NCBI RefSeq assembly: GCF_003334405.1
Contig: NZ_QOWM01000019.1
DNA length: 60,909 nt
Direction: 5' to 3' (one strand)
Source of the DNA: Escherichia coli
Lineage (GTDB): Bacteria > Pseudomonadota > Gammaproteobacteria > Enterobacterales > Enterobacteriaceae
Position numbers: made by a program. This document shows positions 45,001-48,000 of the stretch, one piece after another (the first letter of the stretch is position 1; each line of letters opens with the position of its first letter).

Positions 45001-48000
45001 ATATGGCGCGCAGGACCCTCAAACTGTTTGTAAAAAATGAAACACCGCCAAAAGTTACTCACGAAGACCTGGTGAAAAACAGGCCTCGCTCCCCTGTCAG
45101 ACCACCTATACCCGCAACCGCCAAAACGCCAGACCTCCCTGAACGTCATTAAACCGTGATGTTACCGACTCTCTGACGCGTGAAAGAATCAGCGTCAGAG
45201 AAACGGAAAACGCGATCCAGATCACAAATGCATTGTATTCACATCATTAACCGTTTTAAGATCATTTCATCACTTTTTCGCAACTCACCCGATAATCTGT
45301 TATGACAACAAACACTGTTTCCCGCAAAGTGGCGTGGCTACGGGTCGTTACGCTGGCAGTCGCCGCCTTCATCTTCAACACCACCGAATTTGTCCCTGTT
45401 GGCCTGCTCTCTGACATTGCGCAAAGTTTTCACATGCAAACCGCTCAGGTCGGCATCATGTTGACCATTTACGCATGGGTAGTAGCGCTAATGTCATTGC
45501 CTTTTATGTTAATGACCAGTCAGGTTGAACGGCGCAAATTACTGATCTGCCTGTTTGTGGTGTTTATTGCCAGCCACGTACTGTCGTTTTTGTCGTGGAG
45601 CTTTACCGTTCTGGTGATCAGTCGCATTGGTGTGGCTTTTGCACATGCGATTTTCTGGTCGATTACGGCGTCTCTGGCGATCCGTATGGCTCCGGCCGGG
45701 AAGCGAGCACAGGCATTGAGTTTAATTGCCACCGGTACAGCACTGGCGATGGTCTTAGGTTTACCTCTCGGGCGCATTGTGGGCCAGTATTTCGGTTGGC
45801 GAATGACCTTCTTCGCGATTGGTATTGGGGCGCTTATCACCCTTTTGTGCCTGATTAAGTTACTTCCCTTACTGCCCAGTGAGCATTCCGGTTCACTGAA
45901 AAGCCTCCCGCTATTGTTCCGCCGCCCGGCATTGATGAGCATTTATTTGTTAACTGTGGTGGTTGTCACCGCCCATTACACGGCATACAGCTATATCGAG
46001 CCTTTTGTACAAAACATTGCGGGATTCAGCGCCAACTTTGCCACGGCATTACTGTTATTACTCGGTGGTGCGGGCATTATTGGCAGCGTGATTTTCGGTA
46101 AACTGGGTAATCAGTATGCGTCTGCGTTGGTGAGTACGGCGATTGCGCTGTTGCTGGTGTGCCTGGCATTGCTGTTACCTGCGGCGAACAGTGAAATACA
46201 CCTCGGGGTGCTGAGTATTTTCTGGGGGATCGCGATGATGATCATCGGGCTTGGTATGCAGGTTAAAGTGCTGGCGCTGGCACCAGATGCTACCGACGTC
46301 GCGATGGCGCTATTCTCCGGCATATTTAATATTGGAATCGGGGCGGGTGCGTTGGTAGGTAATCAGGTGAGTTTGCACTGGTCAATGTCGATGATTGGTT
46401 ATGTGGGCGCGGTGCCTGCTTTTGCCGCGTTAATTTGGTCAATCATTATATTTCGCCGCTGGCCAGTGACACTCGAAGAACAGACGCAATAGTTGAAAGG
46501 CCCATTCGGGCCTTTTTTAATGGTACGTTTTAATGATTTCCAGGATGCCGTTAATAATAAACTGCACACCCATACATACCAGCAGGAATCCCATCAGACG
46601 GGAGATCGCTTCAATGCCACCCTTGCCCACCAGCCGCATAATTGCGCCGGAGCTGCGTAGGCTTCCCCACAAAATAACCGCCACCAGGAAAAAGATCAGC
46701 GGCGGCGCAACCATCAGTACCCAATCAGCGAAGGTTGAACTCTGACGCACTGTGGACGCCGAGCTAATAATCATCGCTATGGTTCCCGGACCGGCAGTAC
46801 TTGGCATTGCCAGCGGCACAAAGGCAATATTGGCACTGGGTTCATCTTCCAGCTCTTCCGACTTGCTTTTCGCCTCCGGTGAATCAATCGCTTTCTGTTG
46901 CGGAAAGAGCATCCGAAAACCGATAAACGCGACGATTAAGCCGCCTGCAATTCGCAGACCGGGAATCGAAATGCCAAATGTATCCATCACCAGTTGCCCG
47001 GCGTAATACGCCACCATCATGATGGCAAATACGTACACCGAGGCCATCAACGACTGACGATTACGTTCGGCACTGTTCATGTTGCCTGCCAGGCCAAGAA
47101 ATAACGCGACAGTTGTTAATGGGTTAGCTAACGGCAGCAACACCACCAGCCCCAGGCCAATTGCTTTAAACAAATCTAACATTGGTGGTTGTTATCCTGT
47201 GTATCTGGGTTATCAGCGAAAAGTATAAGGGGTAAACAAGGATAAAGTGTCACTCTTTAGCTAGCCTTGCATCGCATTGAACAAAACTTGAACCGATTTA
47301 GCAAAACGTGGCATCGGTCAATTCATTCATTTGACTTATACTTGCCTGGGCAATATTATCCCCTGCAACTAATTACTTGCCAGGGCAACTAATGTGAAAA
47401 GTACCAGCGATCTGTTCAATGAAATTATTCCATTGGGTCGCTTAATCCATATGGTTAATCAGAAGAAAGATCGCCTGCTTAACGAGTATCTGTCTCCGCT
47501 GGATATTACCGCGGCACAGTTTAAGGTGCTCTGCTCTATCCGCTGCGCGGCGTGTATTACTCCGGTTGAACTGAAAAAGGTATTGTCGGTCGACCTGGGA
47601 GCACTGACCCGTATGCTGGATCGCCTGGTCTGTAAAGGCTGGGTGGAAAGGTTGCCGAACCCGAATGACAAGCGCGGCGTACTGGTAAAACTTACCACCG
47701 GCGGCGCGGCAATATGTGAACAATGCCATCAATTAGTTGGCCAGGACCTGCACCAAGAATTAACAAAAAACCTGACGGCGGACGAAGTGGCAACACTTGA
47801 GTATTTGCTTAAGAAAGTCCTGCCGTAAACAAAAAAGAGGTATGACGATGTCCAGACGCAATACTGACGCTATTACCATTCATAGCATTTTGGACTGGAT
47901 CGAGGACAACCTGGAATCGCCACTGTCACTGGAGAAAGTGTCAGAGCGTTCGGGTTACTCCAAATGGCACCTGCAACGGATGTTTAAAAAAGAAACCGGT

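What the first reader, a model, noticed from the sequence alone, without database searches (positions are those of the whole stretch)
47295..47396. marO: two palindromic MarR sites bracket the promoter and the marR GTG start
Read directly from the sequence: TACTTGCCTGGGCAATA between -35 and -10, and TACTTGCCAGGGCAACT overlapping the RBS and GTG start codon of marR, with a marbox-like element upstream. marR uses GTG, and the second operator covers its translation start, giving both transcriptional and potential translational occlusion.
Basis: partly seen in the sequence, partly recalled or inferred. Interest (0 to 1): 0.35.

Follow-up and report, generated by a model that had tools for sequence, protein, structure and literature searches.

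The report
E. coli marRAB promoter-operator (marO)
This is the long-characterised control region of the E. coli multiple-antibiotic-resistance operon, where the MarR repressor binds two near-identical palindromes around the promoter; the reading is correct but ordinary, and only the idea of translational blocking lacks support.

Summary
Window 47183-47396 is base-for-base identical to E. coli K-12 MG1655 marC-marR intergenic DNA. The named elements are all there:
- marbox, 47295-47314
- -35 TTGACT, 47331-36
- TACTTGCCTGGGCAATA, 47339-55
- -10 TATTAT, 47354-59
- TACTTGCCAGGGCAACT, 47374-90
- Shine-Dalgarno AGGG, 47382-85
- marR GTG, 47394

Coordinates quoted in the literature for the MarR sites (-58..-35 and -23..-1 from the marR start), the Shine-Dalgarno and the marbox fall on these bases.

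Across 80 other enterobacterial species the two palindrome cores are 93-97% conserved. Fourfold-degenerate marR sites are 55% conserved, and spacings are fixed. The non-ATG start is kept in 80 of 81 sequences.

One detail is wrong. Site II abuts the GTG but does not cover it.

The "translational occlusion" idea is not supported:
- MarR is a double-stranded-DNA-binding winged-helix repressor.
- The leader hairpin is weak (-3.8 kcal/mol, no better than shuffles).
- Its outer stem is not conserved.

Low MarR translation comes from the weak Shine-Dalgarno and the GTG start, which is already published.

Everything central here is already known, so interest is low.

Side observations: repeat-bounded 35-, 20- and 11-bp marO deletions occur in a few natural isolates, and 6.9% of E. 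coli genomes carry a toxin-antitoxin insertion beside marO.

The parts
46517..47182 (-). marC, the divergently oriented neighbour gene
   Evidence: ORF found. RefSeq annotation b1529. Matches the NCBIfam MarC equivalog at 376.6 bits against a cutoff of 162.
47295..47314 (+). marbox, the binding site for the activators MarA, SoxS and Rob
   Evidence: Lies inside the exact 30-bp MarA-binding fragment GAACCGATTTAGCAAAACGTGGCATCGGTC used in PMC11633057. Equals nt -99..-80 from the marR start as given in PMC5890708. Mean identity 0.87 across 81 species. Start-to-start distance to the -35 is 36 nt in 79 of 81.
47331..47336 (+). -35 hexamer TTGACT of the marRAB promoter
   Evidence: Promoter scan gives 10 of 12 matches with a 17-nt spacer. 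Mean identity 0.996 across species. PMC5890708 places the promoter at -63..-35.
47336..47359 (.). MarR site I (published -58..-35). The core palindrome TTGCC-TG-GGCAA lies at 47342-47353.
   Evidence: Coordinates from PMC5890708. Core found. Core mean identity 0.93 across species. The only frequently varying core base is G47349, which is A in many genera.
47354..47359 (+). -10 hexamer TATTAT
   Evidence: Found. The distance from -35 start to -10 end is 29 nt in 81 of 81 species.
47366..47368 (+). Inferred transcription start. I recall a database value of MG1655 1,619,093, which is window 47367.
   Evidence: Inferred from the position 7-9 nt after the -10. The database value is from memory and was not checked here.
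47371..47393 (.). MarR site II (published -23..-1). The core palindrome TTGCC-AG-GGCAA lies at 47377-47388.
   Evidence: Coordinates from PMC5890708. Core mean identity 0.97. TTGCCNNGGCAA sits at -17 in 78 of 80 other species. The left arm TTGCC is not part of the Shine-Dalgarno, yet pairs 47377-47380 with 47385-47388 are invariant in 81 of 81.
47382..47385 (+). Weak Shine-Dalgarno AGGG of marR, embedded in the centre and right arm of site II
   Evidence: PMC5890708 gives the Shine-Dalgarno at -12..-9. AGGG occurs in 55 species and GGGG in 22 of 81. There are 5 nt between the palindrome end and the start codon in 80 of 81.
47394..47828 (+). marR, GTG start, 144 aa
   Evidence: ORF. Matches the NCBIfam MarR equivalog at 319 bits against a cutoff of 240. 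Full-length matches to MarR chains in PDB entries 3VOE, 5H3R and 1JGS. Start codons across 81 sequences are GTG 77, TTG 4, ATG 1.
47848..48231 (+). marA, the activator that binds the marbox
   Evidence: RefSeq annotation. Matches the NCBIfam MarA equivalog at 294 bits.
48263..48481 (+). marB
   Evidence: RefSeq annotation. Matches the NCBIfam MarB equivalog.
47365..47393 (+). Two 9-nt direct repeats GCAACTAAT (47365-73 and 47385-93) that flank site II
   Evidence: Repeat family D4. A natural 20-bp deletion in ST131 strain 5392 lies exactly between them.

Best explanation
The segment is marO, the promoter-operator of the E. coli marRAB operon.

Shown here:
- The DNA is identical to K-12.
- The element positions equal the published ones.
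- The two palindromes, the marbox, the promoter hexamers and all spacings are under strong purifying selection across Enterobacteriaceae.

Taken from established knowledge and not tested here:
- One MarR dimer, a winged helix-turn-helix protein, binds each roughly 21-bp pseudo-palindrome.
- Site I lies between and overlaps the -35 and -10 hexamers, so it competes with RNA polymerase.
- Site II lies at about +5 to +27, just before the marR start. It adds repression at the DNA level by interfering with open-complex formation or promoter escape.
- Inducers such as salicylate and copper-driven Cys80 oxidation release MarR.
- MarA, SoxS or Rob bound at the marbox then activate the promoter.

The Shine-Dalgarno AGGG sits inside site II, and marR starts with GTG. 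MarR is therefore made inefficiently. That is a property of the mRNA signals, not of MarR sitting on the operator.
For: Identity and annotation:
- 100% identity of 47183-47396 to MG1655.
- RefSeq annotation gives marC / marR / marA / marB.
- NCBIfam equivalog matches lie above their cutoffs.
- MarR matches the PDB MarR chains, including 5H3R. PMC11591804 cites 5H3R among the MarR structures and shows a MarR dimer with DNA.

Published coordinates:
- PMC5890708 gives the MarR sites, Shine-Dalgarno, promoter and marbox.
- PMC2724296 states that MarR footprints protect 21 bp on both strands at two similar sites in marO, one dimer per site.
- PMC3920692 states that site I lies between -35 and -10, and that deleting it gives multidrug resistance.

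Phylogenetic footprint over 81 species, as mean identity to the window:
- -35 hexamer 0.996
- palindrome II 0.97
- palindrome I 0.93
- marbox 0.87
- spacer 47360-70 0.61
- fourfold-degenerate marR sites 0.545
- upstream intergenic DNA about 0.3

The left arm of site II, which has no ribosome-binding role, is invariant.

Within E. coli, the 66 bp from -35 to GTG are identical in 5099 of 5411 records.

Inefficient MarR translation, and conservation of the GTG start and the ribosome-binding site, are reported in PMC12012556, PMC3784492 and PMC5630622.
Against: No binding experiment can be run here. MarR occupancy rests on the literature, and the primary footprint papers (PMC41713, PMC177928) are not held. 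They were reached only through papers that cite them.

The relative contribution of site II to repression, and the exact transcription start, come from my memory of Martin & Rosner 2004 and of RegulonDB.

The centre-to-centre distance between the sites is 35 bp in some genera and 36 bp in others. Fixed helical phasing between the two dimers is therefore not conserved. This argues against obligatory cooperative contact but not against the model.
Confidence: 0.96

Rival explanations
1. Site II also works at the translational level. Either MarR itself or the hairpin formed by the site II palindrome in the 27-nt leader would mask the Shine-Dalgarno and start codon of marR.
For: The Shine-Dalgarno AGGG lies inside the palindrome, which ends 5 nt before the GTG. 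The predicted leader fold does put part of the Shine-Dalgarno in a stem-loop. MarR is known to be poorly translated.
Against: - MarR is a duplex-DNA-binding winged-helix protein. I know of no report of it binding RNA.
- The hairpin is weak at -3.8 kcal/mol, with z = -0.24. Of 200 shuffles, 65 fold at least as well.
- Two of its four outer-stem pairs can form in only 10 of 81 and 6 of 81 species.
- Its inner stem is invariant, so it gives no covariation evidence.
- Most of the Shine-Dalgarno sits in the loop.
- The footprint stops at -1, before the GTG.
- As I recall it, Martin & Rosner 2004 (Mol Microbiol 53:183, not held here) found no Shine-Dalgarno occlusion by the stem-loop in the wild type. 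They attributed poor translation to the weak Shine-Dalgarno and the GTG start.
Confidence: 0.03
2. Site II is conserved only because it carries the ribosome-binding site and leader of marR. It would not be a functional operator, and site I would do all the repression.
For: Site II overlaps the Shine-Dalgarno. PMC12012556 reports that the ribosome-binding site is almost fully conserved. PMC3920692 stresses site I as the important one.
Against: - TAC-TTGCC (47374-47381), which includes the left arm, lies upstream of the Shine-Dalgarno and has no ribosome-binding role, yet is essentially invariant across 81 species.
- The conserved unit is the same 15-mer as site I.
- Published footprints show MarR on both sites.
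- From memory of Martin & Rosner 2004, full repression needs both sites.
Confidence: 0.04
3. The repeats are a chance or mobile-element-derived duplication with no regulatory role.
For: Short two-copy repeats are often chance matches, as the tool itself cautions.
Against: - Both exact copies lie 35 bp apart, where about 2e-4 are expected in the window (my arithmetic).
- Their position relative to the promoter and start codon is conserved in 80 species.
- The region matches a region characterised experimentally.
Confidence: 0.005

Closest known systems
marO sites I and II of the E. coli K-12 marRAB operon (Martin & Rosner 1995 footprints; MarR PDB entries 1JGS and 5H3R)
   Same: It is the same locus. 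The DNA is identical from marC to the marR start. The coordinates of sites, Shine-Dalgarno, promoter and marbox match, and the MarR protein is the same.
   Different: Nothing differs within the mar locus. Elsewhere the window differs from MG1655 by 32 SNPs and two 1-bp deletions, with none between 42945 and 49876.
Other autoregulated MarR-family operators, such as OhrR-ohrA, MepR-mepR, MexR and the SlyA boxes
   Same: A dimeric winged-helix repressor binds a pseudo-palindrome that overlaps the -10 or -35 of its own promoter. A ligand or oxidation releases it (PMC2724296).
   Different: marO has two direct copies of the palindrome, with the second in the transcribed leader over the ribosome-binding site. 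The same promoter also carries an activator site, the marbox, for a product of the same operon. This interlocks a negative and a positive feedback loop.
True translational operators, such as ribosomal-protein and ThrRS leaders
   Same: A repressor's target overlaps the Shine-Dalgarno of its own gene.
   Different: In those systems the repressor binds structured mRNA. Here the target is duplex DNA, the RNA structure is weak and not conserved, and no RNA binding by MarR is known.

Membership tests
E. coli marO (MarR operator sites I and II) | Sequence equals the characterised K-12 marC-marR intergenic region | tested here: met
   214 of 214 identical to NC_000913.3. 5417 of 5426 E. coli genomes hold the region.
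E. coli marO (MarR operator sites I and II) | Sites at -58..-35 and -23..-1 from the marR start. Site I lies within the -35/-10 region and site II over the Shine-Dalgarno. | tested here: met
   Coordinates from PMC5890708 map to 47336-47359 and 47371-47393. These ranges contain the two 17-mers.
E. coli marO (MarR operator sites I and II) | Pseudo-palindromic half-sites suited to a dimeric winged-helix protein, with two similar copies | tested here: met
   TTGCC-NN-GGCAA occurs twice. The two 15-nt copies are 93% identical and 35 bp apart.
E. coli marO (MarR operator sites I and II) | Immediately upstream of an operon encoding MarR, MarA and MarB | tested here: met
   RefSeq annotation and NCBIfam equivalogs above their cutoffs.
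E. coli marO (MarR operator sites I and II) | Conserved in orthologous loci beyond the neutral expectation | tested here: met
   Palindrome cores show 0.93 and 0.97 identity, against 0.545 at fourfold-degenerate sites.
E. coli marO (MarR operator sites I and II) | Physical binding of MarR (footprint or EMSA) and loss of repression when the sites are mutated | not testable with these tools
   Literature only: PMC2724296 citing Martin & Rosner 1995, and PMC3920692. The primary papers are not held.
marbox (MarA/SoxS/Rob site) | Matches the 20-bp mar marbox at the right distance from the -35 | tested here: met
   Exact match to the MarA-binding fragment and to -99..-80. The 36-nt spacing is kept in 79 of 81 species.
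Translational operator or RBS-sequestering leader | A stable RNA structure that sequesters the Shine-Dalgarno or start codon, more stable than chance | tested here: not met
   -3.8 kcal/mol, z = -0.24 for 47367-47396; z = +1.2 for 47367-47420.
Translational operator or RBS-sequestering leader | Covariation that maintains the RNA pairing across species | tested here: not met
   The inner stem is invariant and so gives no information. Outer pairs 47373/47392 and 47375/47390 can pair in only 10 of 81 and 6 of 81 species.
Translational operator or RBS-sequestering leader | The repressor binds the mRNA | not testable with these tools
   I know of no report. MarR structures are of the winged-helix DNA-binding type.

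The most novel reading that the evidence does not exclude
Site II is a double-duty element. One 12-bp core serves both as a MarR operator and as the marR Shine-Dalgarno. The operator constraint would then help lock MarR into weak translation across Enterobacteriaceae.

The repeat architecture of marO also makes it a one-step deletion hot spot. The repeats are the two 15-nt operator copies and the two 9-nt GCAACTAAT copies. The 35-bp and 20-bp deletions remove an operator together with promoter or translation signals.

The 35-bp deletion arose at least twice, because it sits in backgrounds with and without the toxin-antitoxin insertion. This would be an under-noticed non-coding route to altered mar expression.
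Probability: 0.3. Interest if true: 0.22.

Novelty: already known. Interest (0 to 1): 0.06.

Why it matters
marO is the switch that controls MarA and, through it, AcrAB-TolC efflux and low-level multidrug resistance. Mutations in the operator or in marR are a recognised clinical route to reduced fluoroquinolone susceptibility.

The conservation of the GTG start and the ribosome-binding site was published in 2025 (PMC12012556).

The practical value here is small:
- The window carries the wild-type K-12 operator and marR.
- The analysis gives a clean cross-species footprint.
- It gives a short list of natural deletion alleles bounded by the operator repeats.

Tried and rejected
- **Primary papers.** I tried to read them by PMC id (PMC41713, PMC177928, PMC177043). 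None is held. One PMC id that I guessed was an unrelated physics paper.
- **Noisy searches.** Full-text search with word-start matching returned 'marrow' and 'Morocco' noise. The Chem Rev review is truncated before any marO text.
- **RNA hairpin.** Tested and rejected as a significant structure.
- **Rfam.** No known RNA family lies in or near marO. The only hit in the window is STnc560 at 51009-51222.
- **Other MarR-like sites.** None in the window has fewer than 3 mismatches.
- **Minus-strand promoter-like match.** CTGGCA-17-GATAAT at 47383 to 47355 scores 9 of 12. The scan found 2 sites in all, against a mean of 1.0 in shuffles, and I did not pursue it.
- **MG1655 identity.** I assumed the whole window was MG1655. 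It is not. It has 32 SNPs and 2 indels, although the mar locus is identical.

Full report
**What is in the sequence**

Window 46900-48400 and its ORFs show this layout:
- a 221-aa ORF on the minus strand, 46517-47182
- a 211-bp gap
- three plus-strand ORFs: a 144-aa ORF starting with GTG at 47394, a 127-aa ORF and a 72-aa ORF

The gap contains, in order:
- GATTTAGCAAAACGTGGCAT, 47295-47314
- TTGACT, 47331-36
- TACTTGCCTGGGCAATA, 47339-55
- TATTAT, 47354-59
- TACTTGCCAGGGCAACT, 47374-90, with AGGG at 47382-85
- GTG, 47394-96

The promoter scan finds TTGACT-17-TATTAT with 10 of 12 consensus matches. The repeat finder reports the two 15-nt copies as 93% identical and 35 bp apart. It also reports a 9-nt direct repeat GCAACTAAT at 47365-73 and 47385-93.

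The 15-mer occurs without mismatch only at these two places in the window. The bare palindrome TTGCCNNGGCAA also occurs exactly only here.

**What it is**

- The 214 bp from marC to the GTG are identical to E. coli K-12 MG1655, where RefSeq annotates marC, marR, marA, marB and eamA.
- The four proteins score above the curated cutoffs of the NCBIfam MarR, MarA, MarB and MarC equivalogs.
- MarR matches the deposited MarR chains over its full length, including 5H3R.
- The window as a whole is a very close relative of MG1655, not MG1655 itself. It has 32 SNPs and two 1-bp deletions, none between 42945 and 49876.

**Comparison with characterised footprints**

PMC5890708 gives these positions relative to the marR start:
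- Shine-Dalgarno, -12..-9
- promoter hexamers, -63..-35
- MarR sites, -23..-1 and -58..-35
- marbox, -99..-80

With G47394 as +1, these become 47382-85, 47331-59, 47371-93, 47336-59 and 47295-314. Those are exactly the elements read from the sequence.

Other papers agree:
- PMC2724296 summarises the footprints as 21 bp protected on both strands at two similar sites, with one dimer each.
- The 30-bp fragment used for MarA binding and simulation in PMC11633057 equals 47290-47319.
- PMC3920692 states that site I lies between -35 and -10, that site II lies near the translation start, and that loss of site I gives a multidrug-resistance phenotype.

The primary papers are not held.

**Independent evidence from related sequences**

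A scan of one genome per species returned 80 marR loci. They come from Escherichia, Citrobacter, Salmonella, Enterobacter, Kosakonia, Lelliottia, Raoultella and other genera.

I aligned -215..+30 of each locus. Mean identity to the window was:

| Region | Mean identity |
|---|---|
| -35 hexamer | 0.996 |
| Palindrome II | 0.97 |
| Palindrome I | 0.93 |
| marbox | 0.87 |
| -10 hexamer | 0.86 |
| Spacer 47360-70 | 0.61 |
| Fourfold-degenerate marR sites | 0.545 |
| Rest of the intergenic region | about 0.3 |

Other conserved features:
- TTGCCNNGGCAA sits at -17 in 78 of 80 loci.
- Site I commonly reads TTGCCTGAGCAA outside Escherichia.
- The -35 to -10 distance is invariant.
- The palindrome II end is 5 nt from the start codon in 80 of 81.
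- The marbox to -35 distance is kept in 79 of 81.
- The distance between the two sites is 35 or 36 bp depending on genus.
- The left arm of site II has no ribosome-binding role, yet it is invariant. Conservation therefore cannot be due to the ribosome-binding site alone.

The start codon is GTG in 77 sequences, TTG in 4 and ATG in 1 of 81. This reproduces what PMC12012556 published in 2025, together with the conserved ribosome-binding site and its role in setting pulsatile basal mar expression.

**Mechanism**

The following steps rest on the literature and were not tested here:
- A MarR dimer on site I competes with RNA polymerase.
- A second dimer at about +5..+27 adds DNA-level repression.
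- Inducers release MarR.
- MarA, SoxS or Rob bound at the marbox activate the promoter.

The start site near 47367, and the statement that both sites are needed for full repression, are from my memory of RegulonDB and of Martin & Rosner 2004.

**The translational-occlusion idea**

- The footprint ends at -1 and the 17-mer ends at -4, so the start codon is not covered.
- A DNA-bound repressor cannot mask mRNA.
- The site II palindrome could form a leader hairpin, but it is predicted at only -3.8 kcal/mol with z = -0.24.
- Two of the four outer pairs can form in only 10 of 81 and 6 of 81 species, and the inner pairs never vary.
- Poor MarR translation is documented. It is attributed to the weak Shine-Dalgarno and the GTG start.

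I therefore rate this reading at about 3%.

**Variation in E. coli**

- The 66 bp from -35 to GTG are identical in 5099 of 5411 matching records.
- The sampled point variants lie outside the palindrome cores.

A few genomes carry deletions bounded by the repeats:
- A 35-bp deletion fuses sites I and II and removes the -10. It occurs in HUE1, Ec1120, OY754416.1 and OY754389.1.
- A 20-bp deletion between the GCAACTAAT copies removes site II and the Shine-Dalgarno. It occurs in an ST131 blood isolate.
- An 11-bp deletion occurs in DETEC-P351.

HUE1 and Ec1120 differ in whether they carry the toxin-antitoxin insertion, so the 35-bp deletion arose at least twice.

The HUE1 paper reports only a marR frameshift and high marA mRNA. 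No consensus-like promoter remains in the deleted allele. This is unexplained.

**Verdict**

This is a correct reading of a textbook regulatory region. It is already known and of low interest. One positional overstatement and one unsupported mechanistic suggestion need correcting.

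Noticed in passing
Junction near window 47263; L083 1817-2411; L088 817-1411: 373 of 5426 complete E. coli genomes (6.9%), including E. coli B and HUE1, carry a RelE/ParE-family toxin plus a helix-turn-helix antitoxin. The pair is inserted between marC and marO, just upstream of the marbox region. The window lacks it.
   Followed up: partly
Window 47347-47393, compared with L083, L090, L089 and L082: Natural marO deletions are bounded by the operator's own direct repeats. The 35-bp site I/II fusion, which loses the -10, occurs in 4 genomes from at least 2 backgrounds. The 20-bp loss of site II and the Shine-Dalgarno occurs in ST131 strain 5392. An 11-bp loss occurs in DETEC-P351.
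   Followed up: partly
L083 2560-2615 (HUE1): The 35-bp deletion leaves no consensus-like sigma-70 promoter. Yet the HUE1 paper reports marA over-expression and mentions only a marR frameshift (PMC3662882). This is unexplained.
   Followed up: partly
Window 1865-60885: The window is not MG1655 itself. It has 32 SNPs and two 1-bp deletions, at 22399 within the yneO pseudogene and at 60627. Nine SNPs cluster at 60675-60885, beside the start of the cryptic prophage Qin.
   Followed up: no
Window 51009-51222 (-): This is the only Rfam match in the window: STnc560, an Hfq-binding sRNA, at 281 bits. It overlaps the annotated mgrR / mgtS-mgtT region.
   Followed up: no
Window 47276-47290 versus 47296-47310: A 15-nt direct repeat, 80% identical, places a marbox-like half 20 bp upstream of the marbox. 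The upstream copy is not conserved across species. From memory, it coincides with the reported Fis site.
   Followed up: partly
L002 (Caldithrix MAG), L059 (Chryseobacterium sp. 18061): Contigs filed under non-enterobacterial names carry marR at 99% and 88% identity to E. coli, with a typical marO. This probably reflects contamination or mis-binning in those assemblies.
   Followed up: no
Window 47383 to 47355 (-): A promoter-like match, CTGGCA-17-GATAAT (9 of 12), lies on the minus strand inside marO and points toward marC. It is consistent with chance.
   Followed up: no
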